Positions 38,400 through 62,996 are shown, counted from the first letter of the stretch. The stretch is DNA of 64,000 nucleotides from Azolla caroliniana (GCA_043228905.1 JBHGNT010000008.1:17670001-17734000), one strand, 5' to 3'. Numbers and translations are program-made. Notes: generated by a model from the sequence alone, not told the origin.

Positions 38400-38691
38400 C
38401 ACATATCAAATATTGGCCTCAAATAGGATTTGAGACAATGCTTTACCATTAGTATAAATATTGTAACGCATAAAATATTATTTCATTTGTTATTTCACAA
38501 AATAATTTAGAAAATTCACAAATATTCTAGAATACTCTAAAACTTTCCAGAAACTCCAGGAATACTCCCGAAGACCCTATAAATAGAGATATATTTTACT
38601 ATTCATAACCAATTTGGGTCAACATTAATGTCAAGCCTCTAAGTTGTTCTTATCTTTGTACTCTTTTCTTGTAATATATTTCCCTTTTATC

Positions 38692-38741: not shown

Positions 38742-38744
<3 letters not shown>

Positions 38745-39139
38745 AATAATGGCTTTCATTACGAAAGAAAAAACACCACCATGACTAACTTACTACAAAG
38801 TATAGAACCCTTCTATCTAGGGATCTAAAGAATACTACGACACCAAACTCAATGTCACCCTACACACCAATTCAAATGGCGAATATGATGATATGTGACC
38901 TTGCAGAGTTCTCTCTCTTCTTGGTTGAGATTTCGTGACTTCTCTAGCACTGTCAATTGCCACAAAAGAAGTCCTTTTAACTTTAGAACATATTTTCTCA
39001 CCCCAACTTGCTGTCATGATTTAGCACGGTATGGCTTCAAAAGGATTTGAACCCATGACCTTGTGGCACATGGGTGAAAGCCTTACCATTAAGCTATACA
39101 TTATAACAAAAAATATATAGCTATACATTATAATACCAT

Positions 39140-42100
39140 TAAGCCGAGACAGCCGAAGGTTAATGGGGAGCGGGGTCGAAGCAGACTTGGCCGAGTGCAT
39201 GTTGAAGCGTTCCAAGACACATCCAATGTAGTCAGTTTGAGACAAGAAAAGTTGTCGTGTATCGCGATGCCGACTAATCTTCATACCAAGTATGTGTCTT
39301 GCTGGACCGAGGCCCTTCATGGCAAACTTCAACCGCAGTTTCCGAATGAGTTCGGCGAGATCTCCGGCATGGCGGCCGGAGAGTAGCATGTCGTCCATGT
39401 AAATGATGAGGAAGACGGGAGACCTGGCTTGAGCTGTTTTGGTGAAGAGACAGTGGTCCTCATCGCTCTTGGAGAAGCCTACCAACTGGATGAAGTCGTC
39501 GAACTTCTTGTACCACTGTCGGGGTGCCTGTTTCAGGCCAGATAAACTCTTCCCGAGTCGGTAGACTAGATGTTCTTGGCCGGATGCCACAAAGCCTTTC
39601 GGTTGCTCCATATAGATTTCCTCCTGTAGGTCACCATGGAGGAATGCCGTTTTTACATCTAGCTAAATCAACTCCAAGTTGTCGGCGGCCACGACGCCGA
39701 GCATGAAACAAAGGGTTGTCATTTTCACCACTGGTGAAAAGATTTCATCGAAGTCGACGCGATGTTCTTGTCGAAATCCCTTCGCAACTAATCTAGCCTT
39801 GTACTTTGGGTTGGTCGAGTCAGACGTCTCTTTTAGTCAATAGACCCACTTGCACGGAAGAGCATGTCGATTCTTCGGTAGTTCGACCAAATCCCAAGTC
39901 TTGTTTGCGCGAATGGAATGCATTTCCGACTCCATCACCAGATGCCAGGTGGTTGAGTCGGTAGATGCGGATGCTTCTTCGTAAGACGTCGGTTCACCGA
40001 CATCGGTAAAGAAAATTCTGGGAGAGTACCTTTCCGGAGGTTGCGACAGTCTCTCAGATCTTCGAGGTATGATTGGACTAGTCACATCGGGTATAGATGT
40101 CGGATGGTTGGAAGCCGAGTCACTCGGCTATGCTGAATCGGTGGATTCAGTGCGGGAGGTGTCGGTTACCCGTGAAACCGATCTCGTGTTGTGGGATGGG
40201 TCTTCATGAAGGGTTGGCACTTCAGAGAATATTACCCTTCGGACTTCAATAGGCCTTTCGGCCGTTTTATGCATAGTCGACTCGTTGAACACGACATCTA
40301 AACTTCGGACGATTTGTCTGTGCTCGGGGTCCCAGAGTCGGTATCAGATCTCGTCGTTGGGTCCATATCCAAGGAAAATGCATTTCCTTGATCTTGGTTC
40401 GAGTTTTCGGTGGTCGTCTTTCAGTATGAGGGCATACGTCTCACAGCCGAAGATCTTGAGCTTGTCATAATTCGGCTTACTGCCGGTTCATGTTTCCTGA
40501 GGTATTTTAAGTCCTAGAGGTTTACTTGGCGACATATTGATTATGTGTACTGCCGTAAGTAGAGCCTCAACCCAGAAGCCATCCGACAGTCCAGAGTGTT
40601 GGAGCATGGATACTACGCGTTCTTGAATCGTCCGATTCATGCGTTCTGCAATTCCGTTCTGCTCTGGACTATAAGGTGCTGTATATTCACGTCGAATGCC
40701 GCGTACTTGGCGACATATTGATTATGTGTACTGCCGTAAGTAGAGCCTTAGCCCAGAAGCCATCCGACAGTCTAGAGTGTTGGAGCATGGATACTACGCG
40801 TTCTTGAATCGTCCGATTCATGCGTTCTGCTCCGGACCGTAAGGTGTCGTATATTCACGTCGAATGCCGCGTTCCCGGCAAAATTTGACGAATTCTTCAG
40901 ACTTGAATTCTCCTCTGTTGGTGGTTCGGAGACATTTCAGTTTCCGACCGGTCTGATTTTCGACCATTGCAAGCCATTCGGAGAAGCTCGAGAACACCCA
41001 ATCTTTGGTTCTAATGGGGTAAGCCCACACCTTCCGAGTCGAGTCCTCAATAAAACTGACGAAGTACGAAGCACCGCCGAGAGACTGATGTGGCATCAGG
41101 CCACAGACGTCCGAATGGACCAAATTGAGGGGACTTGATTCTCTTGGTGCTGATGTCGGGTGTGATGCGGCTACCTGTTTGCCGTACTGGCAATGCTCGC
41201 AGAATTGGTGATCTGAGAAGGAGAGTTTGGGGATGTAACCGGCTCTGGATAGGTGCGTTATGCCGGCCTTGCTGAGGTGTCCAAGTTGTATGTGCCATAA
41301 CGATGACACGGGGATGTCAACCAAAAATAGGTCACCCTCTTTGAGTGTGACATATAAAGGGTACAAGGAATGTACCTTTGGTCCGACTGAGATCAAGGGT
41401 CTTGGAAGCTTAGGAACGTGTCAGACGTTGTGTAGTACGAGTGTAGAGCCACCCGGAAGGTTGAGCTCTACGGCGCTGATTCTGATTATGGCACAGTGCT
41501 ACGAGTTTCTGACTCGAACTGAGTCGGAGTGCTGGTCCGAGTATTGCCGAAACTGAGATCGGTGAGGTGTCACATGATACGATGCGCCCGAGTCCAGGAG
41601 CCATGGGCTCGATTCCTCAGTCGTAAGCAAAACTTCTGATTCGACTGGGTTCTCTATGGACAATATGTTCGGGTCGGTCGTCAAAATTTCAGATGAAGAG
41701 CCGACGTAGTTGACCTCCTCATGTCGGCTACTATTCTGATCCACTCTCTGAGCTTTGTTGGTTTTTGCTTTGAGTGCCCGACAGTTGGCTTTGATGTTTC
41801 CCGGTTTCTTGCAGTAGTTGCAGATTCGGTTGTCCCGGAACTTGCTCCAGCTTCGTTGATTGTTCGGCGGTCGGGAAGAACTTCTTCCCCGGTTGTTCGA
41901 TCGGTCGGTCGAACCTTGTACTATGTAAGCTTCATCTACCGAGTCTTTGGCGAAAGACTTTCTTCGAGCTGCTTCAGTCAGGATTGCGCTCGTGACTTTG
42001 GAGTATTTAATGACAACTGTTGAAGCATTGCACACGGTTGTAACGAAAGTTTCCCATGAAGAGGGGAGACTACTCATGAGTATCATTGCTCTGAGTTCAT

Positions 42101-42828
42101 CCTCGATTGCCGTCCCCTGAGACAAGATTTGGGAGCTTATGCTTTCGTACTCGTTGAGGTGTTCCTGAACCGAATCAGATTCTTTCATCCGCAAGTTGTA
42201 GAGGCGTCAGATCAGATACGTCTTCGTTGCGGCGACATTCTTTTCATAAGTTTCCAACAACGTTTTCCAAAGTTCAAAAGCTATCATGCATGATTGCACT
42301 GTGAAGTACATTGACTCCGACAAGTGCATCCGAATCGATTGTTTGGGCTGATTCTGATTCAGATGACTTCATCGATGAGAGGGACGGATCCAACTGATCC
42401 TCCCGAATGTCGATAAGTTGAATGAAGCACACATTTAGTTGTTGCTAGGAGACCAATCTGCAGCGGGTGGTTACAACAAGAGGGTGAATAATGTCCGGTG
42501 ACCTATTTAGATGTTGTTTAACCAAATGAAGCGCGATTGGGCCGGGTGTTGCACAAGGAGCTCACCTCAAGTGGTTACAATCATAGGAACAGAGTACATC
42601 CGACTAGCTTACTCCAATTAGTGATTTAACACAGTGAGATGCAGACTTCTTGTTTATCTTCTCTCTTCTCTGTTCTTCAAGAAAAACAGAAATAGAATGT
42701 TGGGTGGTGTACTATGACAGCCAGTAGCGGGTTGAAGAACCTCCAACGCTTGGGGAACAAGGTCATCAGTGCGGAAGAACAAGCAACATTTGTGATGGTG
42801 AAGAACCTGCGTATGTGAATAAAACAAT

Positions 42829-42876
<48 letters not shown>

Positions 42877-43078
42877 GCACAAAGAAACGTTATATTTCTC
42901 AATAGCAACAGTTACAACAATGACAAAAAACAACCCCCCAAAACTAAAGGTTACAAAGTCACTTTATATAGTGACTATCCTAGGGCAACTGCCCTTTATG
43001 CTATTTATAGAAATAACCTAAACTTGGGCTGTCCAAAGGGACAGTGTGAATACGGCCATTATACACTCGTATTCAACA
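39140..43078 (-). mobile_element. Ty1/copia (LTR, gag, PR, IN, RT; 3'-truncated) inserted in the chromovirus 5' LTR
   Basis: LTR begins TGTTGAATAC at 43078; CNYCKKPG, WLLDSGASYH, LVHSDVCG, YMDDMLL; about 180-bp tandem duplication 40528-40880. Confidence 0.9.
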
Positions 43079-44030
43079 AGTACTAATCTTCATCTCTTAT
43101 TACTATTTCCCTCTTTGTTTCAGTACTATTCCTGATACTTTGAACCGATTTTATTTCCTTCTTCTTACTCCTCCCTCCCTTCATACTAATTCTCATATCC
43201 CTCCTTTCTCTAATACTATGGCCACTGTTAGCGCTCAAGAATATCAATCCGTTTTCTCAGAGTTGCAATGCTTGAAAGAGAACTTTCTCACATTGGAACA
43301 AGAAAATCAACGGTTGTTGGGGGATCTTCAACAAATATCCTTAGAAAAACAACATACACAACAACATGGGGAACTAGTGTTACGCGTGCAACAACTTGAA
43401 GCAACCATTGTAGCGTTGCAACAACAAGGGCCAAGTACGCAAGGGATTCATAAAGAACCCAAGATCGACCTTCATGAAATTCGATGGAACGCGATCACAA
43501 TTTAGAGGATTCCTTAATTAGGTATGATTAGTCATTCAAATGCATCCTTCCTGATATCCCACCGATGCATCACGAGTGGGTCTAGTAGGCACGTTGTTAA
43601 GTGGCTCAGCTTTGGCATGGTTCGAATGGAATCTCTATTACTAAACAATTTTGAAGAGTTTATAAGCGAATTTAAAGCTTGTTTTGGAGATATTGATAGC
43701 ATAAGGATGCAATCAACAAAATCCGCCAATTACACCAAGGTGATCGTCCAGCCTCTGCATATGCTGCAGATTTCCATCTACTCGCCTCTGATATCCCCTG
43801 GGATGACCAAGCATTAATGGAGCAGTTTCGTTATGGCCTACGTAACGATGTCAAGGATTTACTCTTGACTTTCCCCGAAGAACCAAAGTCATTGACAGAA
43901 GCAATCAGTCGCGCGGTTCGATGTGATAACCGCCTCTTCGAAAGACGTTCGGAACGTCAACTCCAAATGCTGAGGACAAGATCGGAGCCCACCTACCCTT
44001 TAGTTGTAGCAAAGCCATTCCCAAGGGAGT

Positions 44031-44118
44031 TGTCATGATATGACCTGGGATATACACCAGTCTTAAGCCTCCTAGCCATCATTGTATATTCTTTTCACAT
44101 AATATATCGCTGTCATCA

Positions 44119-44156
<38 letters not shown>

Positions 44157-44545
44157 TCTCTCAAGTGTTCTACACCCTCTTTTCCTCTTAGTACTAATAT
44201 TCATCTCTTAGTACTAATTTCCTCTCTATCTCAGTACTATTCCTGACAGTTTGAACCGATTTGGTTCGAAATAATGCCTTGTGCCTCCTTTTATAGTGTT
44301 CTCAGGAGTACTCCTGAAGTTTCTAGAATGTTCCAGAGAAATCTGGAATATACATCAATTTTCTATAGTAAAACTTAAATGAAAATATATAGTCTAATGG
44401 TCAAGAGCTCAACCTATGTAACATAGGGTCATGGGTTCGAGTTTGGCCATGAAAATATATATATATTACAATATATAGTCTAATGGTCAAGAGCTCAACC
44501 TATGGAACATAAGGTCATGGGTTCGAGTTTGGCCATATCGTGACA
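44031..44545. mobile_element. Fold-back chimera of two oppositely oriented Tcn1-family LTR pieces
   Basis: 44031-44248 is a plus-strand LTR with most of U3 deleted. About 44250-44545 is a reverse-complement U3 ending TATCGTGACA. It replaces the host protease region. Confidence 0.8.
44385..44536 (+). ncRNA. Two tandem tRNA-like modules (86-bp period)
   Basis: TAGTCTAATGGTCAAGA...CCTATG-taa-CATAGG...GGGTTCGAGT at 44385-44450 and 44471-44536. Confidence 0.6.
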
Positions 44546-45191
44546 CTCGTCGTAGATTACTGTGGCTTGAATAAGGTCACCATCAGGAATAGGTATGCAC
44601 TCCCCCTTATCTCAAGTCTTTTAGAACGGATCAATGGTGCAAGGTTCTTCACAAAGATCGACTTACGAGGAGCATATAACCTCGTACGGATCCGACCAAG
44701 AGATGAATGGAAGACTGCGTTTCGCACCAAATATGGGCACTTTCAGTATACGGTCATGCCATTTGGTCTCACTAACGCGCCAACAGTCTTCCAACACATG
44801 GCAAATGATATATTCTGAGATCTCTTGGATGTTTGTTTGATCATCTATTTGGATGATCTACTGGTTTATTCGAAGACCCAAGAAGAGCACGATTCTCATG
44901 TACTATTAGTACTAAAACAACTTCGAACTAGAAAAATGTAGTTTCGAGTGCCACCAAGTGGAATTCTAGGCTATGTCATCTCCTCGGAAGGCATCTCTAT
45001 GGATCCAGTTAAGGTTAAAACTGTGGCAGAGTGGTAGAATCCATGTTCATTGCAAGATGTGTAATGATTTTTAGGCTTCACCAATTTCTACCGCAAGTTT
45101 ATATAGGATTACTCTGAAAGCTTATTCTGCCTCTCACACAACTTGCCAAGAAGGGGTAATCATTTGTTTGGTCTAAAGAAGCGGACATGGT

Positions 45192-45632
45192 TGTTACCGT
45201 ATGAGATGTACGGGTAATTGATAAGTGTGATAAGTGAGGGTGAAAGATGTAATGCGTTGATATGTAGGTGTCATGTTATATGATTATGAGTGTGAGTGTG
45301 GTAGATACAAAGAGGTGTTAGTGAGTGACTAGGTGTGAATGCCAAGGGGGCTTGCACCCTTGTGGATCTACCCCTTTGTACCTATTTAACCCCTTATGGG
45401 GAATGAATGAATACAATAACCATTTCTCTCTCCCTCTCTCTCTACCCTCCCCTTAAAGTTGAACCCCCTTGGGAGGGGGTTGGAGCCATTCTAGGCACCA
45501 CCCCCCACCTCGCAATGCTTCTCAATTCTTATCAACCTCTTCATGATCTCTCTCACCATCATACTCTCCATCATCTTCATTATTACACCATGTCTATCAT
45601 TACCATTAACCCTAACCCTAAAACCTATAACA
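45192..45632. mobile_element. Solo LTR in chromovirus pol
   Basis: TGTTA...TAACA termini, TSD ATGGT/ATGGC, host frame EADM|AFVSLKKAF. Confidence 0.8.
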
Positions 45633-45897
45633 ATGGCTTTTGTGAGTCTTAAGAAGGCATTTACATCAACTCGTATTCTAGCTCATGTTGATCCGAAAAA
45701 ACCGTTCATCATTGAGGCTGACACGTCGGATTTCGCCTTGGGTAGCATTCTGTCACAACAAGGCGATGATGAAAAGCTACATCCTGTGGCTTTCCACTCA
45801 CGCAAGTTTGACGCCGCCAAAATCAACTACGAAATTCATGGCAAGGAGCTATTAGCAATAGTGGACTCTTTTACACAATGGAGGCATTTTCTAGAGC

Positions 45898-46074
45898 GAG
45901 TCGATTTTTTCGTGCGTGCTGCATCGGTAAAAAACCCCCTAAGAATATGTCGTCTATTTGCCTGCCAACAAAACGATTACACTTCAGTCATACCTTTCAG
46001 TTCAGTGTTGCTCGAACTATGCTATCCATGATGGGTAGCACATCCTGCTCTTTTGTATCCACATCAATCGACTC
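45898..46074. mobile_element. 177-bp insertion with 9-bp TIR
   Basis: GAGTCGATT...AATCGACTC; interrupts RNase H WRHFLE|PHQVTV. Confidence 0.55.
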
Positions 46075-48034
46075 CTCATCAAGTCACTGTTACATTCAAT
46101 GATCATAAAAATCTTGCCTACTTCCAGAATGCTCGTGTATTAAATCAACGTCAAGCTCAGTGGGCCCAATTCCTCACTCGTTTTGACTTCAAAATTACAT
46201 ATCGCCTTGGGAAGCTGCAAGGAAAGGCAGATGTGTTATCACGACGTTCGTATCTAGCACCACGTTCCGGTGAGGCAACATTCGATAATTAAAAGCAAGT
46301 AATCCTGGGACCGGCACGACTGCAAGCAACGCGGGTTTTTGATACGCCGTTGGATTCCCACATTATCGATACCATACGTAAGGACTTGAAGACAGACGCT
46401 TTTGCTCAAGCCATTCTAACACAAATTGACCCCTCTTGGGCATCTTGTTCACAATCACAATAACTAGGTACAGATTATCGACAATTCGAATGTCATCATG
46501 GATTACTATTCTTTAAGAAACTCTTGTATGTTCCTAATGGTTATTGTCGCCTTCAAGTAGTCCAAAATTGTCATGACACATATACAATTGGGCATTTCGG
46601 TAGTACTAAAACGTTAGATTTAGTACAACGATCATTCTGGTGGACCCAAATGCGATGATTTGTCAAAGACTATGTTCGGACATGTGATACATGTTGTAGA
46701 GCAAAGATGCCAAGACATCATCCATATGGTTTATTGGAACCATTACCAATTCCAAGAAAGCCGTGGCATTCCATTTCTCTAGATTTCATCACAGATCTTC
46801 TAATTTCAAAGGGATTCGATGCCATCTTAACAGTAATAGATTGATATATGAAGGTGGCACATTTTCTACCTTGTACTAAGGAAATCACTAGTGAAGAAAC
46901 CACTGAAACTGTCATGCGAGAGGTATGTCGGCATCATGGCCTCCCCGATAGCATCATCAACGACCGTGGACCCCGATTCGTCTCGAAATTCTGGAAGCAT
47001 CTCTTCAAAATGCTCAAGGTCACTTGTAATCTCTCCTCCAGCTATCACCCACAAACAAACGGACAAGCAAAACGAATGAATCAAATGCTAGAACAATATC
47101 TTCGATGTTTTCTAAGCCATCAACAAGATGGCTAGGCAGATATTCTCCACTTTGCCAAAATTGTGTATAATAACTCTGTCCACTCATCGACTAGGGTTAC
47201 ACAATTTTATGCTTATACGGGCTATCATCCGCGGTGGTGTGTATTCGAAACTCCGGAGTTACCCACAAATCCTTGTGCAGAGGATCATTTGGAGTGGCTA
47301 CGCAAGATACAAGCGAACTTATCTACTCATTTACAACAAGCTCAACAAACACAAAAGGATTATGTGGATCGTCATCGGCTTCCATCCAGATTTAACATTG
47401 GAGATCGGTTATGGATATTATGACGACACATCAAGACTACTCACCCATGCGATAAATTGGACTATCGGCAATTAGGTCTTTTCCGTATTATCGGAAAAAT
47501 TAATGATGTCGCTTTTTGTCTCGATCTACCTCCGCAACTATGGATACATCCAGTTTTTCATAGTTCTCTTCTCGAACCGTATCATGATAACACTATTTCG
47601 AATCGTATTACACCACCTCCACCCTCGATCGAATCAACTAATTCGTTGTTAGTAAGTGAAGTACATACAAGATCTATCAACATCCAAATTAGCAATCTAA
47701 CTTATCGAGTCTCGAAACTAACATCTCATCTAGAACTACATCCCAAAGATTATTCATCCCAAAGAGGTTTATGGAGGGTGAGCTTGAAGCCAGATTGGAG
47801 TACGAAGTAGATGTCATCCTCGATTCCAAGATTGTTCGCAACAAGCTCTATTATTTGGTCGATTGGCTAGGCTACAGTCCAAGTGAGCGTACTTGGGAAC
47901 CAGTCGAGAATGTGATAAATGCTCGAGCTCTTGTTGAGGACTTTCATCGACGATATCCCGACAAACCTGGTCCTCCATCAAAGACGACCTGTAGCACTCA
48001 TCGTCTTAGGGGGGGTAATGTCATGATTTCACTT

Positions 48035-48107
48035 GGTATGGCTTCAAAAGGATTTAAACCCATGACCTTGGGGCACACGGGCAGAAACCTTACCATTAAG
48101 CTATACA
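48035..48107 (-). ncRNA. tRNA-like Pol III module in the chromovirus LTR (second copy 39028-39100)
   Basis: TAGCTTAATGGTAAGG ... GGTCATGGGTTYAAATCCTTTT. Confidence 0.6.
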
Positions 48108-51100: not shown

Positions 51101-51493
51101 TCAAGCAAATAAACTAGGAGACTTAATTTCTTTCTCCTTTTAAAAGCATGGTGAATTCCATAATACATAGTTAACCTTTGAACATTTGCAACAAATACTT
51201 CCCATGCTTCATACCCATAAAATTGAACACGGTAGGTAAATGCATCAATCAATTGACACATATAGGCATGGAAGACCTCATGATCCAAAAATGATGAATT
51301 AAAAATCAACGGTGGTTTTCTTAAAAACTCATGAAAAGCTCTAATTGAGTGGTGAGTGAATTAAAAAATTAATGGGAAATGATATGATATAATTGACCCA
51401 TAAGACACTGAAATATCCAAAATCTCTGGTAAAAATCCTTCGATATGCATTACATACATTTGATCCAACCTACTCCAAGTATCCTTATATTGA

Positions 51494-51534
<41 letters not shown>

Positions 51535-51638
51535 TGAAAACACACAATTATTTTAATAAATGTGTGTGAAAAACACTACTTACAATGAGTGTGACAATGA
51601 ACTATGGTCACCCACTAGCTACACTACATGGGTAGTGG

Positions 51639-52132
51639 TAACAATCGGCAATGGTTCGGTTTGAACCGAATCGAACCGCGAAACCGCGGCTTAATAGCTT
51701 AACAGTTTCAATGGTTCAGTTCAGGTTTAGGTTTTTTTTAACGGTTCGGTTCGGTTTCAATAGTTAGAAACCGCGGTTTAAACGGTTTAACGGTTTATTA
51801 ATTTTTTTAAAATTTTAAAAAGAAATTTTTTAAAAAAATTAAAATTTTAAAAATTGTTTTTAAACAATTTTTTCATTTTTAGACCTTATTCTTACATTTT
51901 AGGAACATCTTAAAAATGTTGAAAAATTAAAATAATGAAATATTATAAATTTTAAAAATTAAAAATTAAAATTTTTGACCTAAGTTGAAAACTGAAACCG
52001 AACCACGAAACCGCGGTTTTTTCGGTTTAATGGTTTAACGGTTTCATGGTTAAGTTTGGTTTGGTTCAGGTTTCAAAAAATTTAAACGATTCGGTTTGGA
52101 CCCGAAACGAACTGAACCGTTGCCGATTGTTA
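51639..52132. mobile_element. hAT-superfamily MITE
   Basis: TIR TAACAATCGGCAAYGGTTC; perfect 8-bp TSD GGTAGTGG; subterminal AAACCG repeats; AT-rich core. Confidence 0.92.
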
Positions 52133-53294
52133 GGTAGTGGAACATGTTGAATTTGCAATTGGCAAGACGAACGCTCCACTAGGGAAAGAATTTTCACTTG
52201 CTCGAATAAAGAAAATTGTCACATTAGTACTCCCTTCAACTTTCGTAGATAAGCTTTAACTACATGCCTACCATCAAATATAAAAGCATTGCGCATATCC
52301 CAATTATGACGCAATCTTCAATATCTCAAATATATGAAAATGATCTCCATCTCTGAGTTTAGGTCAACCTATGTAAATTGTGCAAATACCCATTGTCTAG
52401 GTGTTAAGTAACACCGTGATAAAACTTGCCAATTTTGAGAAAAGTAACTCCAAATCTGACAAGGAATCAGACATTGTATAAATCGATGAGTACTATCTTC
52501 CATTTGAACAATGCAAAAGAAGCAATTACCCGTTGTTAGTCCACGACGCTTTAGAGCTAATCCCATAGGCAATCCTCCAATCAAAACTCTCCAAATGAAA
52601 ACCTTTCCTAGAAGTGGCAATTTAGAATACCAACTACGTTTCAAGATCTACCACCACCCACAATCAAATTTGTGTATTGTCCACTCTTCTTCAGCCTTAG
52701 ATGATACCCATCCAAGAGACTCAATAGAGCAATGATACAAAAGATTAGTAGACACTTATAACAACGACGTCTGACCCCGTAAACACTAATCAATCCACGA
52801 TTGTTCTCTTGTATGTAGAGGTAAAGGACCTTGCATCAATCCAATATTTTGCAGTTGTTGCCACATAAACCCACCCATAATTTGGTGGGTTGCATAATAA
52901 TTGTCGCTTTGTCGTGAAGATTTTCGGCAATAGTGTGAAAATCCCATAAAACGTACGAAATCGAGTATGAATCACATAATACAATAATTGTGAAGATAAC
53001 ATTTTAAATAAATTTAATATTTAAGTACAAAATGATGGAGGTTTTGAATGCACTTTATTACATGAGAAACAGACAACTAAATGTCAAGATATGAGGGTAT
53101 AAAGTTTGCGAAAGGAAAAGAGAAAATTGTGAGATATCCCACATAGGCATGACAAATACGACTCTCATCATATATAAGGTAGAGCAAAAGATATTATCTT
53201 TGTGTCTATGTGTGGAGCATAGAGAGTTCAAGGTAACTTGAACTAAGTGTGGAGGTGGGCTAGCTACTCGTAAAGGGTTTTGGCCAACCAAAAC

Positions 53295-53715
53295 CGGATC
53301 GGCGATGGAGCCGGTGATCCGGCGCCAGTGAGACACTGGCATCCGACGGCAATCCGGTGACGTTATCCGGCGACGGTGAGACGACGACATTCGGCGGCGG
53401 CACCGATATCCGGCGATGGCATCCGGCGGCGGCACCGGTATCCGGCGATGGCATCCGGCGGCGGCACCGGTATCCGATGGCATCCGACGTCGGTGAGACG
53501 ACGACATTCGACGACGGCACCGGTATCCGACGGCAACCGGCGACGGCATCCGACGTTGGTGAGACGACGGCATCCTGCGAGGCACTGGTAACCGACGGCA
53601 TCCGACATCCGGTGTCGGTGATACGACGACATCCGGCGGCGGCACCGGTATCCGACGGCATCCGGCGAGGCACCGGTAACCGACGGCATCCCACGAACAG
53701 ACGTCCGGTGACTAG
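53295..53715. repeat. GC-rich minisatellite in the 5' LTR (shorter version at about 60480-60640)
   Basis: Repeated units ccggcgatggcat / ccggcggcggcaccggtat / ggtgagacgacg. Confidence 0.85.
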
Positions 53716-53750
53716 ATAAATAAATATATAAATATATGTATTTACAAGGA

Positions 53751-53820
53751 GGGCAAGTAAGGATTCAAACCTTGCACCTCCGAGTTAGGAGTCAATTGGC
53801 TTACCATTAAGCCATACCAT
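53751..53820 (-). ncRNA. tRNA-like Pol III module in the gypsy LTR (second copy 60677-60746)
   Basis: TGGCTTAATGGTAAGCCA (A box/D arm) ... AAGG TTTGAAT CCTT (B box/T arm); no acceptor stem. Confidence 0.6.
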
Positions 53821-54289
53821 TTAGTTGAATTTATATTTCTATCATTGTACTTTTACATGTAAATTCTCATACATGAGAGCTAAAAATGAGTGACATGGTT
53901 ATCGTGCACCACATGCAATATATAAGCGCCAAATGGCAAACATGCATTTTATGCATGTCTTGTACCCTCACATGCACCATATGCATGAGAACATCTATAA
54001 AAGAAGGAGGGGGGAGGAGAAAAAACACGTTTTTTTGGGTTATGAAATTAAGAAGAAATTCGTTATCAAATTGATCGTGTAACTTGTTTCTTAAATCCAA
54101 AGATAAAAGTTCAATCAATCTCTCTCAATCGTTAGATCTCAACTTCTCTCTTTCCCAATCTATCTTAAGTACTTTCTCGCTAAAGCTTGCGCCAAAGCTT
54201 GTATCGACTTTGAACCCTTCCGGTCTAGAACCCCGGCGGTTCCGCCTCACGATCCGCGCGTAGTGACGGATCTTCACGACATAATTAAG

Positions 54290-54307
54290 TGGTGAACCCG
54301 ACGTGAA
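54290..54307 (+). promoter_or_regulatory. Primer-binding site complementary to tRNA-Trp
   Basis: TGGTGAACCCGACGTGAA is the reverse complement of the plant cytosolic tRNA-Trp 3' end (TTCACGTCGGGTTCACCA, recalled from memory). Confidence 0.8.
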
Positions 54308-56603
54308 AGAGGCGGTAGGAAGGATCAAGTCGAGATTAATACTTGGAGATGGCGTCCTCAAGCAACCAAGCGGGAGAGCTCGAAAGGATGATGCTAATCG
54401 TCGAGCAAATGATGAGATCTCGGGACAACGACGCGAGCATGGAGAAGGCTGTTGATCGTGTCGTAGAGCCTGAGGACCAATTCGATGGAAGGAACGTTAC
54501 GAAGTTCCTTGATGCATATAGAAGGGAGATGAATCAGAGGGACGTGTCCGAGGCACGTCAAATCGCAAGCTTCAAGAGAGTTGTCGCCAACAACATCCAA
54601 AGACGCGTCATCGAGCTTCAAGAAGGTAAGACTACATGGTCCGAGTTCGAGAAAACGATACTAGCGGAGTTTGTGACTGAAGACTCAACGAGGATGACTC
54701 GACATGCCCTGATGAAGTGGATAGAGAAGAAGAATAAGAAGATGAGCGTCTCGAGGGTGTACGACGAATTCGACCAGATGTTTAGTCGTCTCCCCAATAC
54801 GGACCAAGTGTTGCTTAAAGAGGACAAGACTTTGTACTTCTTGAAGACCGTGGACATAAAGGATAGACCGTTGGGGACTCTTCTCGAAGATGATACTCAA
54901 GTAAATGGGCTCGTAGCGGACTGGATCGCGGTGAAGCGGGCATGCAATAGGCTCGACAAGCGTCGCCAATGGGTTGATGACACCGTCTTGACAGGATCGA
55001 CTACCACGGAGAAAGCAAGACCGCCGAAAGTATCTGAGCCACCAAGACAAAGTAACGTGGAAGAAAAGAAGATTGATGACGACATCATTGAAGAGTTAGC
55101 GAAGAAGTTTGAGAAGGTCACGCTAGCCAACATGAATCGTCGGGGCCCTAAAGGAAAAGAACCCTTTAGATGCGTGTGGTGCGATAGCATGGACCACATG
55201 AGAAGGGATTGTGCGAGCCTTCGAGAGGCGATTCGACAAAATATCGTATACATAGAGGACAACATGATCTGGTCAATGCGAGACTAGAAGACCCCTACGG
55301 GTGAATTTCGGAAGAGGAGGAATGAATAAATCTATGGAGGATGCCGATGCGACTCATGTGGATGCGATGCACTATGCTGCGTCAGCTGGAATAAGAGTCA
55401 GGAAAGACAAGACCGAAGCTGCTAGAGCGGGAGCAAAGTTTTGGACTTCTGTTCTCGAATATGAGAAGAAGGCAAAAGTCACATCGAACGAGGTAGAGCT
55501 TGCGGACCGAAGCGTGCAAAGCATAACCAGGTGGTCGGATCCGGTGGACGACAACACCATACTCGCAGAGGTGATGTGCGACAACCACGAGGTGTTCGTC
55601 GAAGAAAAGAGAAAGAGAATAGAAGAGAATAGAAGAGCAAGGCCCATCAAAAAGACATGAAACAAGGAACGCGAAAAAGAAGGACGATGCGGAGACGAGT
55701 CGACCTTTACAAATGGAGGAACGAGAATCAAGCCGAAAAGGGGAACCGAGCATATGAGTTGAAGAAACGGTTCGGCCCGTGAAGGTTGGTGTCGAAGACC
55801 CCGCTCGGAGGACAAGGACTATACCTACCTATAAGCTAAGGTTGGACATAGAGCAGACGACGGACCTAAAGAAGATTCTCGAAGAACGAGTTCTTGATAG
55901 CCACGTAACTTTGTCCTTGAGGGAATTGCTTGGCATTACGAAGAAGGAGTTCCATGACACGATCGTGGACCTTGTAAAGAGAAAGAGACAACAATCGGAC
56001 GAGGAAGAAGAGAAGCCGCAAAAAGCAAAAACGAATGCCATAACGATGGCAAGAGACGAAGTCGATGAAGATATGGTGGACAGCCACTATACTCGACCTC
56101 ATTGGGCACGAGCGACAACGGAGACGCCGGTGAAGATCGGGGAGAAGAAAGAGACCGTGGTAGCCTTGATTGACCACGGCTTGGAGATCAACCTCATGTC
56201 AACCGACTTCTACAAAAAAGGAAGATGGCCAATCAATACAAACCACGGATGGAAGATTCGCGCGGCAACAAAGTCTACGGAGGACTTGTACGGAGCTTGT
56301 CCCAATATCAAAGTCACGATCGGGGATGTGGAGATGGATCAACACTTCTTCATACAAGAATCGGCGTCGCATCTTGTCATCCTAGGGCAACCTTATATCA
56401 CATCATCTCGGATGGAGACCAAAGTGTTCGATAATGGAGCAGCCTTCGCACGAATAAAGAGTCTTGACAACCAAAGATCGGTCCAATTCCTAACGGTGCG
56501 AGCCAATCATGAAAGGAATCGAGATAGTCTCGGAGGCTTTTAGAGCGGACTAGCATGGGGCACAAATAGTCCGAGCAATCACAAGACCCCACAAGAAAGA
56601 AGA

Positions 56604-58631
56604 GTGCGTGGATTGCAAGGAGAAGCAACATGTGTCACACCTAGTGGCGCATATAAACTAGTACTACCCGACAAGAAGCACAAGCACCGGATACAAGAAT
56701 TCGAGAAGATGCTGAAAGAAGAAAACATAATAGAAGAAGGAGAGTTCGTGACTCATATTATGGAAGAAGCCTCATTTAACGACACCATCGGCGAAATCGA
56801 GGACGTCGTGGACTTGAGCTATCTTCACAACCAACGCGTGATTTTGGTTAACTCCGTCAACATGTATGCTATCATCGATGAATACCGTCGTGGCATCTCG
56901 ATGAAGGAAGCTGACATCAACACGAAATATAAAACGGTGGATAAGAAGATCAAGCCAGTTGCGGCTCTGCTACCGGAAGATAGCTGGCAAAAGATGAAGG
57001 AAGTCGCTAACAATCCAAGCTTAAGAGATTCGAAGAAGATAGGTCATGTCTTCACCAAAGAAATGAAGGGGAAGCTACGAGTTGGAAAGGAGGATTTCCT
57101 TCTCCCTGAAGAGGAGCGAATGTTTCGCGATATGCTTGAGAGACATGGGAAGGCTTTCGCATTCTTCCCACGGGAAATCGGATGCGCCGACCCAAAGGTT
57201 ATAGAGCTGATGGTGATCTTCACGGTGCCTCATGTGCCTTGGAATTTGAAACCGATACCGGTTCCGAGAGCACACCTTCCGAAGCTGATCGAGCTCTTAA
57301 AGGAGAAGGTGAGTATGGGAATTCTAGAACCGTCGAATGTTCCTTATTCCAATAGGTGGTTCACAGTGCCGAAGAAGAATGGATCATTGCGATTCATCCA
57401 AGATCTTCAACCCGTCGACAAGGTGACAATTCGAAATGCCGGAATCGGTCCGAGCGTGGACGAATTTGCTGAAGCATTTGCGGGCCGGTCCATCTACTCC
57501 ATTGGCGATCTCTACTCCGGATATGACCAATTCCAATTGGCGATTGACAGTCGGGATATTACAACCATGAGGACTCCGATCGGGCTTGTTCGGATGTGTA
57601 CCTTACCCCAAGGTGCAACGAACTCGGTGGCTCATATGGTGAATGCCATGAATAAAGTCTTGAAGGATTGCATTCCGGACATCACGATGCCATTCTTGGA
57701 TGATATTCCGATAAAAGGATGTTCGGATGAGGAGAAAGATGAATCGAAAGATAAGGAAGGTTGTAGAAAGTTCGTTGCGGATCATATGAAAAATTGTGAG
57801 AAGGTGCTTCAAAGGCTTGAAGATGCGAATTTGACATTTTCGGGAGAAAAATCCGCATTCGGGCAACCGGAGATCTTGGTGGTAGGTCACTTGTGTGGAG
57901 CATACGGCTGGAAGCCCTCGCCATCCAAAGTGAACGCAATCCAAGACATGAAAGAAGAATGCGAAAACCAAACGGAGGTTCGAAGGTTCCTTGGAGCGTG
58001 CATGTTTTATCATATATGGATTCCTCACTACGCTCATGTCGCCGAACCGTTATATGGACTACTAAAGAAAAGAATGAAGTTCGAATGGCGAGATGAGCAC
58101 ACAAATGCGATGCGAAGATTAAAGAAACTGCTTCTTGAAGCTCCGACACTAAGGAAGGCCAACTATGCCGAAGGAAAACCAATTTACGTGACCGTAGATA
58201 CGAGCCAACCGGAATCGGGTGGGTCATCAATCAAGAAGGTGAAGATAATGCGCGATATGTCGTCCGGTTCGGAGCAAAGGTTCTCAGCGAACGACAACAA
58301 AGATATGCCCAAGTCAAGCGGGAACTTTGGGAGTATTGTGTCGGCAATGAAGACGGACAAAGATTACTTGATCGGGTCAGAAGTGATAATAGAGACAGAT
58401 TGTCTCCCAATTCTCGGAATGGTCTCGGGATGTGCGACCCCAGATCTTGCTATGCTAAGGTGGATCGCCTACATCAAGTCTTTAAACCCAGAGATCCGTC
58501 ACATTGCAGGGAAGAAGAACGCCATGGCTAACATGCTGTCGAGGGCAAGATTTTCAAACAGAAGTAACATGGTTTCGGAAGATGAAGATGTCACCCTCGA
58601 CTTCTTCAAGATGGCTCGATTGTTGGCGTAA
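56604..58631 (+). CDS. Reverse transcriptase-RNase H
   Basis: YSNRWFTVPKKNGSLRFIQDLQP, DLYSGYDQ, LPQGATNS, FLDDIP. Confidence 0.9.
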   Translation: MRGLQGEATCVTPSGAYKLVLPDKKHKHRIQEFEKMLKEENIIEEGEFVTHIMEEASFNDTIGEIEDVVDLSYLHNQRVILVNSVNMYAIIDEYRRGISMKEADINTKYKTVDKKIKPVAALLPEDSWQKMKEVANNPSLRDSKKIGHVFTKEMKGKLRVGKEDFLLPEEERMFRDMLERHGKAFAFFPREIGCADPKVIELMVIFTVPHVPWNLKPIPVPRAHLPKLIELLKEKVSMGILEPSNVPYSNRWFTVPKKNGSLRFIQDLQPVDKVTIRNAGIGPSVDEFAEAFAGRSIYSIGDLYSGYDQFQLAIDSRDITTMRTPIGLVRMCTLPQGATNSVAHMVNAMNKVLKDCIPDITMPFLDDIPIKGCSDEEKDESKDKEGCRKFVADHMKNCEKVLQRLEDANLTFSGEKSAFGQPEILVVGHLCGAYGWKPSPSKVNAIQDMKEECENQTEVRRFLGACMFYHIWIPHYAHVAEPLYGLLKKRMKFEWRDEHTNAMRRLKKLLLEAPTLRKANYAEGKPIYVTVDTSQPESGGSSIKKVKIMRDMSSGSEQRFSANDNKDMPKSSGNFGSIVSAMKTDKDYLIGSEVIIETDCLPILGMVSGCATPDLAMLRWIAYIKSLNPEIRHIAGKKNAMANMLSRARFSNRSNMVSEDEDVTLDFFKMARLLA

Positions 58632-58715
58632 GACCAGGACACGCAAACCCTCCACGCCTTCAACGACAACGAGTACGAAGGAGAGCGGTTACTCATCGGT
58701 AGATTCCTAAGAACA

Positions 58716-60023
58716 TTGACGACATATGCTTCGTTGACAAAGAAGGAGGCCCTACGGATCCGAAAGAAAGCTTACCGATACTTCTTGAAGGGAGGATTCC
58801 TTTGGCGACATCCAAAAAGAAGGACAGGAATACCACGTCGAGTGGTGGTAAAGAAAGAAGAGCAAGAGACGCTGATGACCGAATTCCATGAGAGTGCTTG
58901 GGCAGGTCATAGAGGAACATGGGCGACGTTCGAAAAGTTGAAGGAGAAGTACTGGTGGCCAAGCATGTACAAAGATGTACTCCATTTCGTGTCCACATGC
59001 GAAACTTGCCAAATATATTCAAATATACGTCATCGTGATGAGTTACAACCGACATACCCAGTCACCATACACTTCAAATGGATGGTGGATCTAGTCTTGA
59101 TGCCAATGGGAGTGGGACAAATGAAGTACTTAGCGTTGGCAAGGGAAGACTTGACAAATCAAGTGGAAGGACGAGCCTTGACAAATAAGACGACTTTAGC
59201 CGTTTGCAAATTTCTGCTTGAAGAGGTTGTTTGCCGATATGGATGTGTAGGGAAGATAGTGGCCGACTGAGGGGAGTTGGACGCGCACGAAGTGACGGAG
59301 CTCTTCGAAAGACTAGGCGTGAAGCTCTCCCTCACGACTGCCTACAATCCGGAAGCGAATGGGAAGATCGAGCGAGGGCATGGACCTATCGTTAAAGCCA
59401 TCGTACGGGCATGCAACGGTCGAGTCGGGAATTGGCCACGACTATTACCCTATGCCTTGTGGGCCGATAGAACGACACATAGCTCGGTGACAGGGTATAT
59501 GCCGACGAAGCTTATGTATGGACAAAAGTCGATTATGCCCATCGAAAGGACGATTGCCTCATGGGTAGCGATACCGTGGGAGAACGAGATGAACCGAGAA
59601 GAGTTATTAGCGGCGCGGATAAGGCAACTTGAAAGAAGACCTGAAGATTTAGAAAAAGCGCGAAAGATGATGGAGGCAACCCGAGTAAAGAACAAAGTTC
59701 TGTTCGACAACATGCATCGACTTCGTCCCAAGAAGATTGAAGAAGGGGATTGGGTTTTGGTTTACGACAACACCCTTGACAATCAACACAGTATAACAAG
59801 GAAGTTCGCAAGAAGATGGTTCGGGCCATATGTGGTGACAAGTGCCAACGATAATGCCACATACCACCTTGCGGAACTAGACGGATCAAGGTTGGTCGTA
59901 CCCATTGCGGGAAAAAGAGTAAAGATTTTCAAGAAAAGACAAGACAAGGATCCTGACCTCGATCACCTCGACGATGAACATAATAGGGCGGATGTAAATG
60001 AAGACATGGAGGAATCTAATTGA
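58716..60023 (+). CDS. Integrase (in-frame TGA at 59268-59270)
   Basis: H..AGHRG...CETCQ, WMVDLV, YNPEANGKIERGH, RWFGPY. Confidence 0.88.
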
Positions 60024-62996
60024 TCACCGTAGCCGAAATCTCACTTTCTCTCTTCTTGGCACGTACCGGAGGACGTGCGGTTTGGTGGGGGTGGATGTCG
60101 TGAAGATTTTCGGCAATAGTGTGAAAATCCCATAAAACGTACGAAATCGAGTATGAATCACATAATACAATAATTGTGAAGATAACATTTTAAATAAATT
60201 TAATATCGAAGTACAAAATGATGGAGGTTTTGAATGCACTTTATTACACGAGAAATAGACAACTAAATGTCAAGATATGAGGGTATAAAGTTTGTGAAAG
60301 GAAAAGAGAAAATTGTGAGATATCCCACATAGGCACGACAAATACGGCTCTCATCATATATAAGATAGAGCAAAAGATATTATCTTTGTGTCTATGTGTG
60401 GAGCATAGAGAGTTCAAGGTAACTTGAACTAAGAGTGGAGGTGGGCTATCTACTCGTAAAGGGTTTTGGCTAACCAAAACCGGACCGGCGATGGAGCCGG
60501 TGATCCGGCGCTAGTGAGACACCGGCATCCGACGACAATCTGGCGGCAATCCGGCGACGACATCCGGCGTCAGTGAGACGACGGCATCCGGCGAGGCACC
60601 GGTAACCGACGGCATCCCACGAACCGACGTCCGGTGACTAGATAAATAAATATATAAATATATATATTTACAAGGAGGGCAAGTAAGGATTCAAACCTTG
60701 CACCTCCGAGTTAGGAGTCAATTGGCTTACCATTAAGCCATACCATTTAGTTGAATTTATATTTCTATCATTGTACTTTTACATGTAAATTCTCATACAT
60801 GAGAGCTAAAAATGAGTGACATGGTTATCGTGCACCACATGCAATATATAAGCGCCAAATGGCAAACATGCATTTTATGCATGTCTTGTACCCTCACATG
60901 CACCATATGCATGAGAACATCTATAAAAGAAGGAGGGGGGAGAAGAAAAAACACGTTTTTTTGGGTTATGAAATTAAGAAGAAGAAATTCGTTATCAAAT
61001 TGATCGTGTAACTTGTTTCTTAAATCCAAAGATAAAAGTTCAATCAATCTCTCTCAATCGTTAGATCTCAACTTCTCTCTTTCCCAATCTATCTTAAGTA
61101 CTTTCTCGCTAAAGCTTGCGCCAAAGCTTGTATCGACTTTGAACCCTTCCGGTCTAGAACCCCGACGGTTCCGACTCACGATCCGCGCGTAGTGACGGAT
61201 CTTCACGACAACGCTTCAACAAACTACAAAATTCTTTGAGATGGAACCTCAACTATATCTCCCATCTCTTTGACCCTCAAATGAAACAAACGATTAAACT
61301 CAAAGTGCAATCTCTCCTATCTTGGCCAACATAATAACCAAGAAAACACAAGTCTTTTTGCACAGAATTACAATGCTCTCTACTAGATGATTGTTTCCAT
61401 ACACATAACAAGAGTGATTCTTGCCATGAGATATAACCAAGTGTTGAACACATGAAGAGACTAGAATCCTAAGTGTACATCCATTCAAAAATTGCCACCA
61501 TGAAACCTTAATTGTTGGCCTCCCATGTGTTAAGCCCTTGTTCTCAATGAAATATTGAACAATAGATATCCGTGGTTGTGAGTTTGAATATATTTCTTGC
61601 AATAATGAAAATCTATGAGCCATCATATGGATAGATAAGTCCAATATTCCAGCTCCCCCCTAAGCACTTAGGGGTTGCTAGATGATTCCACGGAACCCAT
61701 GTGATTCCCATCTTATCCCTCTTCTTCCACAACAAATATCGAAGAGGTTGCAAAACATAATGCAAAGCCTTCTTTGTCCATGGCAACAATGACAAGTAAT
61801 ATAATAGCATGGGTTCCATAATACATTGTACAACCTTCAAGCATACATGAAATGGCCAAGATTGTGACTTCCAATACATAAACTTATCCCTTAACTTACT
61901 AGACATCCACTCAATCAATTGACCATTTGTAACATTCATTCCCAATGGATACCCAAAGTGTTGAAAAATAGAGCCTTTCTTCACCATGAATCCTTCCCAT
62001 CCTAAACATTCCAGATCCCTTTTAGTGCATGATATGAGACTAGACTTCCTCCAATTAATATGTAATCCGAAAACCAATGCAAATTGGTTCCATACAAGCA
62101 TCTTCTTCTCAAGATTGTCTCGTGAAGCTTGTAGAAACATGAAAGAATCATCGGCCAAAGCTTGTGCTTAATTTAATAGTTGCCCTCTAGATGGAAGGTG
62201 TTGACCCATGATGTTACCATTTGTTGCAAGCCTTGATAGCATCACTAACAACGGATGAGTAGCAATAGCAAACAACAATGGGCTAAGTGGGCATCCTTGA
62301 TAAATAGATATTGTCAAGGCAATATTTGATGTAACTCCCCCATTAAGCATTACTCCTCTCTCTCTCTCTTAAAATACATTAGTGTATCTCTCTCTATCAA
62401 TTGAAAAATATATAAATGACTTAACCAACATAACCAATTTGAGGCAATTAATTAGGGCTCAAAACAAACCAAACCGAGCTCACATTAGTTAAGAAAACTC
62501 AAGCCCAAACCAAACTAAACTAAACCGCCAAACCTGTTAACAACATTTCAATGGTTTGGTTCAAGCTTGAGATAAACTATTGTCGACTCCAAGCATGGAT
62601 CTTGGAGGGCATGAATTTGCTCAAGCAATGGAGGATATTGGTGCATGTGAAACACTACTAAATTGTATTGATTGTGATAGTAATAGATTACACTTGACAA
62701 CATATTATGCTAGTAATGTTACTTGAGATGAAATCATTAACATAAATTGGATGATCATAATTTTGGAAATCCATATTCAAAGTTATTAGCATCTATTTTA
62801 ACCAATTATTCCTTTGAAACAACCACATGCCCATAGATTGACACATGCATGATATTCGTGATATTTTCCATGCGTGATACGCAATATTCGAGATAAGAAA
62901 AGTCCCCGAGGATATTTTAAAACCATTTGTTTTGCAAAATAAATAAAGAAGGAAAGAATTAAGTCACAAAAGAAAAGAACAATCACTCATTAATGG

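What the first reader, a model, noticed from the sequence alone, without database searches (positions are those of the whole stretch)
39028..60746. Distinct LTR retrotransposon lineages carry an antisense tRNA-like Pol III module in their LTRs
Seen: six copies of a 65-75-bp module with tRNA A-box/D-arm (TRGYYTAATGGT) and B-box/T-arm (GGTTYRART) spacing. Two are in the chromovirus LTRs (39028-39100, 48035-48107; B box followed directly by TTTT). Two are in tandem in a sister-family U3 (44385-44536). Two are in the LTRs of a very different gypsy lineage (53751-53820, 60677-60746). All are antisense to their element and none has an acceptor stem. Known: Cassandra TRIMs carry 5S-derived Pol III promoters in their LTRs, and TFIIIC-bound boxes can act as chromatin barriers. 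I do not know of a described tRNA-type equivalent shared across coding gypsy lineages. Inference: convergent capture or exchange of a Pol III promoter acting as an anti-silencing insulator, an antisense regulator or a tRNA/tRF mimic.
Basis: partly seen in the sequence, partly recalled or inferred. Interest (0 to 1): 0.75.

Follow-up and report, generated by a model that had tools for sequence, protein, structure and literature searches.

The report
Backward tRNA promoters in fern retrotransposons
Two unrelated groups of protein-coding jumping genes in a plant that is probably a fern each carry a backward-facing, tRNA-derived promoter look-alike as a fixed part of their end repeats, which they likely captured separately and may use to keep their own promoter from being silenced, although no binding or RNA product has been shown.

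Summary
The six modules are real (6 pattern matches, 0 in 100 shuffles) and antisense to their elements, but they are three duplicated units in two lineages: a self-priming Tcn1-type chromovirus (with its sister LTR) and a tRNA-Trp-primed Phygy-type element. The host is probably a fern. The module is a fixed family feature, not a sporadic SINE: 92 of 93 pattern hits from one block of plant metagenome assemblies lie in LTRs, with no sense copy seen, and it survives between Phygy-type families whose U3 regions are otherwise unalignable. Tcn1 and Phygy spacers are unrelated, so this is likely two captures, not exchange. A non-autonomous CACTA element from other assemblies carries a similar module. 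Cloverleaf and terminator are not kept; the boxes are. Against function: B-box C56 is T in 3 of 6 window copies, the within-family box-versus-flank test is not significant, and moss RLG1 seems to lack the module. No RNA or binding data were available. Best reading: an outward-facing Pol III/TFIIIC site back-to-back with the LTR promoter, acting as a boundary (untested). Closest known: Helenus TRIMs (sense, non-coding). This scan noted similar antisense units in fungal and protist Gypsy elements before.

The parts
39012..48449 (+). Element X: decayed Tcn1-type chromovirus (gag, RT/RNase H, integrase, chromodomain); 5-bp TSD CTTGC at 39007-39011 and 48450-48454
   Evidence: self-priming and chromodomain fit Tcn1 in PMC6317226
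39012..39118 (+). U3 start of the X 5' LTR (the LTR is split by a copia fragment)
   Evidence: 92 of 107 identical to 48019-48125
39028..39100 (-). Module X5: A box 39096-39086, B box 39053-39043 (C56 intact), T4 at 39042-39039
39129..39150 (-). Partial A-box repeat at the junction with the inserted copia fragment
43079..43137 (+). U5 end of the X 5' LTR
   Evidence: 55 of 60 identical to 48391-48452
43139..43150 (+). Self-priming PBS of X, complementary to the start of R (about 48250-48263)
44031..44545 (.). Sister-family insert S: R-U5 plus PBS (44031-44261, +) fused to an inverted U3 (44251-44545, -); replaces the gag end, protease and RT start of X
44385..44450 (+). Module S1 (first unit of an 86-bp tandem duplication); A box from 44390, B box 44434-44442; no T4 nearby
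44471..44536 (+). Module S2; A box from 44476, B box 44520-44528; ends about 10 nt from the LTR start
48019..48449 (+). X 3' LTR; PPT just upstream; TATAAA at 48218, 115 bp from the A box
48035..48107 (-). Module X3: A box 48103-48093, B box 48060-48050 (T at position 56 in this copy, C in most relatives), T4 at 48049-48046
52910..61210 (+). Element Y: Phygy-type non-chromovirus (gag, RT, RNase H, integrase, with stops); LTRs 97-99% identical outside a GC-rich repeat; 3' flank ACGC fits the NCGN target, 5' flank is an imperfect match
52910..54281 (+). Y 5' LTR; TATAAA at 53996, 182 bp from the A box
53751..53820 (-). Module Y5: A box 53814-53804, B box 53771-53763 (T at position 56); closest to tRNA-Arg(UCU) among the tRNAs at hand
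54290..54306 (+). PBS for tRNA-Trp
   Evidence: matches the 3' end of the tRNA-Trp(CCA) in L120
60096..61210 (+). Y 3' LTR, preceded by a PPT
60677..60746 (-). Module Y3, identical to Y5
38405..38466 (-). Decayed seventh module with the inter-box segment deleted, in an old Tcn1-related LTR (38443-38713 is 69% identical to the X 3' LTR)

Best explanation
Two lineages of coding Gypsy retrotransposons each carry a tRNA-derived A-box/B-box unit, facing outward in U3, that was likely captured separately from a tRNA gene or SINE head and is predicted to bind the Pol III factor TFIIIC next to the LTR's own promoter, where it would act as a boundary against silencing. Shown: the unit is a fixed, antisense part of U3 in Tcn1-type and Phygy-type families; it lies 115-182 bp upstream of the Pol II TATA box, back to back with it; the boxes persist while cloverleaf, anticodon arm and terminator do not; the two lineages' spacers are unrelated. 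Inferred: capture happened once per lineage and was copied to both LTRs at each round of reverse transcription; selection in the actively transposing copies keeps the boxes. Untested: TFIIIC/TFIIIB loading on the AT-rich stretch between the unit and the TATA box, open chromatin or a barrier there, and any short Pol III RNA (about 60 nt where a T4 follows), which on this reading is a by-product.
For: Fixed, not sporadic: 92 of 93 pattern hits from one block of ten metagenome assemblies are in LTRs (73 Tcn1-type, 10 Y-like, 2 V, 7 Z), none seen in sense orientation. Contigs of four coded organisms cover the X module, each with at least one contig over the whole 162 bp; the Y module is covered like the unique LTR parts in four runs. 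Deep retention: the V family (same Trp PBS, gag 43% identical to Y) aligns with the Y U3 only at the module; the spacer, which the search pattern does not fix, scores z 4.9-7.0 while six flanking windows score -1.3 to 2.1. A-box positions outside the pattern keep the tRNA consensus: T8 in 68 of 69 and G10 in 61 of 70 Tcn1 loci, T8 and G10 each in 9 of 10 Y-like and 7 of 7 Z loci. In the unbiased contig pile-up, box changes fall on degenerate positions plus C56. DNA-level rather than RNA-level: T4 follows in only about 16 of 70 Tcn1 loci, 9 of 10 Y-like, 7 of 7 Z, and in neither S nor Y here; folds differ between lineages; X primes itself, so no primer tRNA needs pairing; a non-autonomous CACTA DNA transposon carries a similar unit facing its end. 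TFIIIB/TFIIIC barriers are described for yeast (PMC9540200, passages).
Against: No transcript, binding or methylation data. Within the X family the invariant box positions are not significantly more conserved than the flanks (1 of 11 versus 17 of 78 polymorphic, Fisher p=0.30; p=0.10 without C56). C56 is T in 3 of 6 window copies, including both LTRs of the young element Y, and in 7 of 19 Phygy-type and Z loci. In 49 S-type loci the B-box CpG decays as often as a spacer CpG (10 versus 8 changes in 98 sites, p=0.81), so inserted copies show no protection. Among close Tcn1 families the spacer (48-68% identity to X) is less conserved than the Pol II promoter region (mostly 72-93%). The first 400 letters of the highly active moss RLG1 transcript, which begin with its LTR, show no such unit (PMC7466625 supplement). 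Two copies with a damaged module exist (window 38405-38466; L049). The barrier review I read names tRNA-gene barriers for yeast and animals, not plants.
Confidence: 0.42

Rival explanations
1. RNA-level function: Pol III makes a short antisense hairpin RNA (or read-through antisense RNA over the 3' end of pol) that regulates the element or acts as a decoy for silencing.
For: Tcn1-type modules fold as a long rod: mean z -3.25 over 70 loci; 669 of 686 cells paired in 49 S-type loci and 186 of 195 in 13 X-type loci, with one clean C-G to T-A switch between subfamilies. X-type and Y-like loci have a T4 right after the hairpin, giving a 55-70 nt unit.
Against: RNAalifold found 0 of 10 and 0 of 6 pairs with double changes. 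The opposite strand folds nearly as well (z -2.89), and the G-U over A-C excess vanishes at pattern-free sites (15 versus 10). The fold differs between lineages and the terminator is missing in S-type and window Y copies.
Confidence: 0.22
2. Neutral relic: a SINE head or tRNA fragment inserted into an ancestral U3 of each lineage and has been carried along without function.
For: Non-significant within-family conservation, unprotected B-box CpG, T56 in both LTRs of a young copy, apparent absence from moss RLG1. Free SINE-like heads with similar boxes exist in other assemblies (L028, L058, L026, L072). Kojima 2024 states that not a few Repbase LTRs hold a tRNA-like part.
Against: The unit outlasts the rest of U3 between Y and V families; same orientation and same side of the TATA box in all families seen; box consensus kept at positions outside the search pattern in four groups with unrelated flanks.
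Confidence: 0.2
3. tRNA-pairing site in the element's own RNA: the sense strand of U3 is complementary to tRNA arms and binds a host tRNA to bridge the RNA ends during reverse transcription, as in the Ty3 bipartite PBS and the tRNA-like stretch of HIV-1 U3-R.
For: Antisense orientation in U3 is what this mechanism needs. Ty3's PBS has a U3 part that pairs with the T and D arms (PMC5371799, passages); the HIV-1 case is known to me from a reference title only. Y shares a 7-nt anticodon-arm stretch with tRNA-Trp.
Against: X-type elements prime themselves. Y is closer to tRNA-Arg (0.69) than to its Trp primer (0.61), and the 7-nt match is not kept in Y-like, V or Z families (the Trp sequence used is a eukaryote-type copy from another organism). 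A DNA transposon carries a similar unit.
Confidence: 0.1
4. A free-standing SINE inserted sporadically into individual LTR copies.
For: SINE-like heads with similar boxes occur in other assemblies.
Against: No own TSD, body or tail in the window copies; present in both LTRs; fixed position 12-34 nt from the LTR start in the 53 of 70 Tcn1 loci with an exact terminus; 92 of 93 hits from the relevant assemblies are in LTRs.
Confidence: 0.03

Closest known systems
Helenus (TRIMp3; Kojima 2024, PMC10886601; read parts 1-4 of 6, figure and table section, supplement passages)
   Same: tRNA-derived sequence inside both LTRs; conservation centred on boxes A and B; mostly not a functional tRNA; proposed origin by SINE insertion into an LTR, several times independently.
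   Different: Helenus is non-coding and 311-1263 bp; the tRNA-like part is sense in the consensus sequences I saw (including Helenus-1_SMo) and is proposed to be the element's promoter. Here the hosts are 8-9 kb coding elements with a TATA-type promoter and the unit is antisense. Kojima argues that autonomous partners are unlikely to share such LTR stretches.
Cassandra and Ajax TRIMs (as described in PMC10886601)
   Same: Pol III promoter from a small-RNA gene carried in LTRs over long times.
   Different: 5S-derived, non-coding, and in Cassandra the promoter transcribes the element itself.
Tcn1 chromoviruses and Phygy non-chromoviruses (Neumann et al. 2019, PMC6317226; passages and one supplement row; Novikova et al. 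2010, PMC2864245, passages)
   Same: X: chromodomain, self-priming PBS, 5-bp TSD. Y: tRNA-Trp PBS, about 8.3 kb, NCGN target, no chromodomain.
   Different: Described there from moss and club-moss; this host is probably a fern. The passages read mention no tRNA-like LTR unit. Placement here rests on these features, not on a tree with reference elements.
U3 tRNA-complementary sites: Ty3 bipartite PBS (PMC5371799, passages) and the HIV-1 U3-R tRNA-Lys3-like stretch (title only)
   Same: Antisense tRNA-like sequence in U3 of a coding LTR element.
   Different: Those sites match the element's primer tRNA; this unit follows the general Pol III box consensus and occurs in a self-priming lineage.
tRNA-gene/TFIIIC chromatin barriers and SINE boundaries (PMC9540200 passages; PMC8136502 abstract)
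   Same: A/B-box DNA at the edge of a domain, proposed mode of action.
   Different: Shown in yeast and mammals (B2 via CTCF); not shown here, and not as a built-in part of a coding LTR element in what I read.

Membership tests
Helenus / TRIMp3 | tRNA-derived sequence in both LTRs | tested here: met
Helenus / TRIMp3 | Short, non-coding element (TRIM, about 0.3-1.3 kb) | tested here: not met
   X and Y are 9.4 and 8.3 kb with gag-pol domains
Helenus / TRIMp3 | Pol III promoter oriented to transcribe the element (sense) | tested here: not met
   antisense in all LTRs seen; sense in Helenus-1_SMo
Helenus / TRIMp3 | Pol III transcription from the LTR | not testable with these tools
   no RNA holder listed
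tRNA gene | Cloverleaf with acceptor stem and anticodon arm | tested here: not met
   ARAGORN 0; Rfam no tRNA hit at the modules; D and T stems mostly incomplete
tRNA-derived SINE | tRNA-type head with A and B boxes | tested here: met
tRNA-derived SINE | Free-standing copies with body, tail and own TSD | tested here: not met
Type-2 Pol III promoter | A box and B box consensus at tRNA spacing | tested here: met
   C56 is T in 3 of 6 window copies
Type-2 Pol III promoter | T4+ terminator soon after the B box | tested here: inconclusive
   present in X-type, Y-like and Z loci; absent in S-type and window Y
Type-2 Pol III promoter | TFIIIC binding and Pol III initiation | not testable with these tools
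   needs ChIP or in vitro transcription
Tcn1 chromovirus (element X) | Chromodomain after integrase | tested here: met
   Pfam Chromo E 2.6e-14
Tcn1 chromovirus (element X) | Self-priming PBS instead of a tRNA PBS | tested here: met
   43139-43150 complementary to R start; definition
Tcn1 chromovirus (element X) | Placement in the Tcn1 clade by RT-RH-INT phylogeny | not tested
   no reference elements at hand; named relatives of the L015 protein are fungal, algal and vertebrate chromoviruses at 40-45%
Phygy (element Y) | tRNA-Trp PBS, 7.7-10 kb, no chromodomain | tested here: met
Phygy (element Y) | 4-bp NCGN target site duplication | tested here: inconclusive
   3' flank ACGC and pooled loose ends starting ACG fit; 5' flank reads TCGCTT
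Phygy (element Y) | Placement in the Phygy clade by phylogeny | not tested
   named relatives are liverwort and fern proteins at mostly 50-70%

The most novel reading that the evidence does not exclude
Coding LTR retrotransposons and DNA transposons of seed-free plants have repeatedly domesticated a Pol III promoter as a built-in, outward-facing TFIIIC boundary that shields their own promoter from heterochromatin: a host-factor-based anti-silencing device that needs no transposon protein.
Probability: 0.3. Interest if true: 0.8.

Novelty: new variant of a known kind. Interest (0 to 1): 0.52.

Why it matters
Pol III promoters in LTRs are described as the driving promoter of tiny non-coding elements (Cassandra, Helenus, Ajax). 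Here they sit backwards in large coding elements of two lineages, where they cannot make the element's RNA, so any selected role must be different. If they recruit TFIIIC, these very abundant LTRs would scatter thousands of Pol III factor sites through a plant genome, give a direct test of whether tRNA-type barriers work in plants, and show an anti-silencing route without a transposon-encoded protein. They may also bear on tRNA gene counts in ferns (a review cites more than 7,500 for Azolla filiculoides), although the two tRNA finders used here do not call these modules and the host species was not determined.

Tried and rejected
No RNA holder was listed; this says nothing about expression. 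The module pattern found 0 matches in viral contigs. A single shared origin or exchange between Tcn1 and Phygy was rejected: spacers unrelated, and the two profile models cross-score only 11-14 bits against 54-73 bits for their own family. A conserved cloverleaf was rejected. Covariation by RNAalifold gave no double changes. A folding-strand test by G-U versus A-C was dropped because the search pattern biases it. My first guess of a moss host was dropped after the host HisHF gene scored best with a fern among named proteins (841 bits versus 810-813 for liverworts and 713-777 for angiosperms; no moss protein was among the 120 listed). The parent tRNA is not settled: only about a dozen tRNAs were at hand. 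The lineage of family Z is not settled (no domain in its two adjacent ORFs). Other LTR elements in the window (three copia-type, one further gypsy) show no module. Literature searches returned no description of antisense tRNA-type A/B modules shared by coding plant Gypsy lineages; subscription journals and Repbase entries are not covered. The supplementary PDF of PMC6786969 was too large to read and may discuss fern tRNA counts; supplement cells of PMC7466625 are cut at 400 letters; the HIV-1 U3-R paper is not held.


Full report
Observation. The six modules are at the given coordinates with the given motifs. One pattern spanning both boxes matches 6 times in the window and never in 100 shuffles. 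ARAGORN finds 0 tRNA genes and Rfam has no tRNA match at E<=5. The six copies are three duplicated units. Profile searches add two partial copies, at about 38405-38466 and 39129-39150.

Anatomy. Element X spans 39012-48449 with the duplication CTTGC on both sides; a copia fragment splits its 5' LTR; it has a chromodomain and a PBS at 43139-43150 that is complementary to the start of R. Self-priming plus chromodomain defines Tcn1 among plant chromoviruses (PMC6317226, passages). Its module lies at the very start of U3, pointing out of the element, 115 bp from the TATAAA at 48218. Insert S (44031-44545) is a sister LTR in two fused halves, with an 86-bp tandem duplication of the module. Element Y spans 52910-61210, has LTRs 97-99% identical outside a GC-rich repeat, and a PBS that matches tRNA-Trp; Trp priming, size and an NCGN target fit Phygy (supplement row). 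Its module is 182 bp upstream of the TATAAA at 53996. Neither placement was tested on a tree.

Family feature or sporadic insertion. No genome was held. Contigs from public DNA runs cover the Y module about as deeply as the unique LTR parts in four runs of three coded organisms (depth is no copy number), and 631, 650, 293 and 286 contigs from four coded organisms lie on the X U3, each run with at least one contig across the whole stretch. Ninety-three come from one block of ten assemblies, and 92 of them are in LTRs: 73 Tcn1-type (all 73 with an LTR-start or U3 motif beside the module), 10 Y-like, 2 of a second Trp-primed family (V) and 7 of a third family (Z); L075 is unassigned. Wherever direction could be read from termini, PBS, PPT or coding strand, the module is antisense. 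Of the other 25 loci, 10 form group W, at least one a non-autonomous CACTA element with the module about 700 bp from its left end and facing it, and several look like free SINE heads. The ten assemblies may be one study, and their host was not determined.

One capture or two. The spacers between the boxes, which the pattern does not fix, are related within Tcn1 (z 1.4-6.6) and among Y, Y-like and V (z 4.2-6.6) but not between these groups (z -1.6 to 0.2); the Phygy-type spacer resembles a tRNA-Arg(UCU) found in L039 (z 3.1-4.6) and the Tcn1 spacer does not. The two profile models cross-score 11-14 bits against 54-73 for their own members. Two separate captures are therefore more likely than exchange. 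Z shares the boxes and the adjacent bases with Phygy but its spacer is only weakly similar (z up to 2.6).

Is it conserved beyond the flanks. For: V aligns with the Y U3 only at the module (spacer z 4.9-7.0, upstream windows -1.3 to 2.1) although the families share the PBS and their gag segments are 43% identical. A-box bases outside the pattern follow the tRNA consensus in four groups with unrelated flanks. In the unbiased pile-up the changes inside the boxes fall on R9, Y11, N12, Y16, R57 and C56. Two of three extra modules found without the pattern have intact boxes. Against: the pile-up contrast is not significant (1 of 11 versus 17 of 78; p=0.30); C56 is T in 3 of 6 window copies, in 8 of 70 Tcn1 and 7 of 19 other LTR loci; the B-box CpG decays like a spacer CpG (10 versus 8 of 98); among close Tcn1 families the spacer is less conserved than the Pol II promoter region; and the visible 400 letters of the moss RLG1 transcript, starting at its LTR, show no module (PMC7466625 supplement). 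So selection is suggested over long times but not shown copy by copy.

Structure. No cloverleaf: in 70 Tcn1 loci the D stem has at most 3 of 4 pairs and the T stem is complete in 7. Tcn1 modules form a rod (mean z -3.25) with 669 of 686 cells paired in S-type and 186 of 195 in X-type loci and one compensatory switch between them; RNAalifold found no double change and the opposite strand folds almost as well. Phygy-type modules form other hairpins with the B box in a loop. A T4 follows closely in X-type, Y-like and Z loci but not in S-type or window Y.

Mechanism. What stays constant is the pair of boxes, the antisense direction and the place upstream of the Pol II TATA box; what varies is fold, anticodon arm and terminator. 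That points to a DNA-level role, and a similar unit in a DNA transposon fits it. I commit to an outward-facing TFIIIC/TFIIIB site that would keep the LTR promoter open or block silencing from the flank (0.42; binding and effect untested; barrier activity is described for yeast, PMC9540200 passages). Rivals: an antisense hairpin RNA (0.22), a neutral relic (0.20), a tRNA-pairing site in the element's RNA as in Ty3 (PMC5371799 passages) or HIV-1 (title only) (0.10; weakened by self-priming in X and by the poor match to tRNA-Trp), and a sporadic SINE (0.03).

Comparison with what is known. Helenus TRIMs carry tRNA-like sequence in their LTRs but are short, non-coding and sense (PMC10886601); the same paper says that not a few Repbase LTRs hold a tRNA-like part, so undescribed cases like this one exist. 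The elements here fail two Helenus criteria. Ten literature searches gave no description of antisense A/B modules fixed in several coding plant Gypsy lineages. Unchecked notes of this scan report similar antisense units in a fungal Gypsy family and in a protist element; they are leads, not support.

Verdict. Real, fixed, likely convergent feature; a new variant of the Pol III-promoter-in-LTR theme; function untested. Interest 0.52; 0.8 if the boundary role holds (probability about 0.3).

Noticed in passing
window 12115-34295 (-): Host HisHF (imidazole glycerol phosphate synthase) gene spread over about 22 kb with TE-filled introns; best named match is the fern Adiantum.
   Followed up: partly
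window 8938-12280 versus 27782-33488: Inverted duplicate (87-96% identical) of HisHF exons and introns lying next to or inside the gene's 3' end.
   Followed up: no
window 44031-44545: R-U5 plus PBS fused to an inverted U3, apparently through the PBS/R-start homology of a self-priming element; replaces part of gag-pol of X.
   Followed up: partly
window 39119-43078: Copia fragment without its own clear LTRs splits the X 5' LTR; the left junction repeats the module's A box.
   Followed up: partly
window 38400-38750: Old Tcn1-related solo LTR with an inter-box deletion and three heat-shock-element-like GAA/TTC motifs.
   Followed up: partly
window 53320-53700: GC-rich tandem repeat in the Y U3 whose length differs by about 260 bp between the two LTRs and varies among copies.
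   Followed up: no
window 6312-8655: Short copia (gag and protease only) with 257-bp LTRs, 96% identical, inserted in another gypsy element.
   Followed up: no
L066 3292-5682; also L022, L079: Non-autonomous CACTA-type element from a different set of assemblies carries a similar A/B module about 700 bp from its left end, facing that end.
   Followed up: partly
L028 363-410; L058 841-888: Free SINE-like heads with boxes much like the LTR modules and a shared body; host unknown.
   Followed up: no
L056, L021, L049, L011: LTR family Z, with a PBS beginning TGGCGCCG, carries the module about 110 bp from the LTR start; lineage not determined.
   Followed up: partly
L040 171-937: Cluster of three organelle-like tRNA genes (Val, Ser, Leu) beside a Phygy-type LTR.
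   Followed up: no
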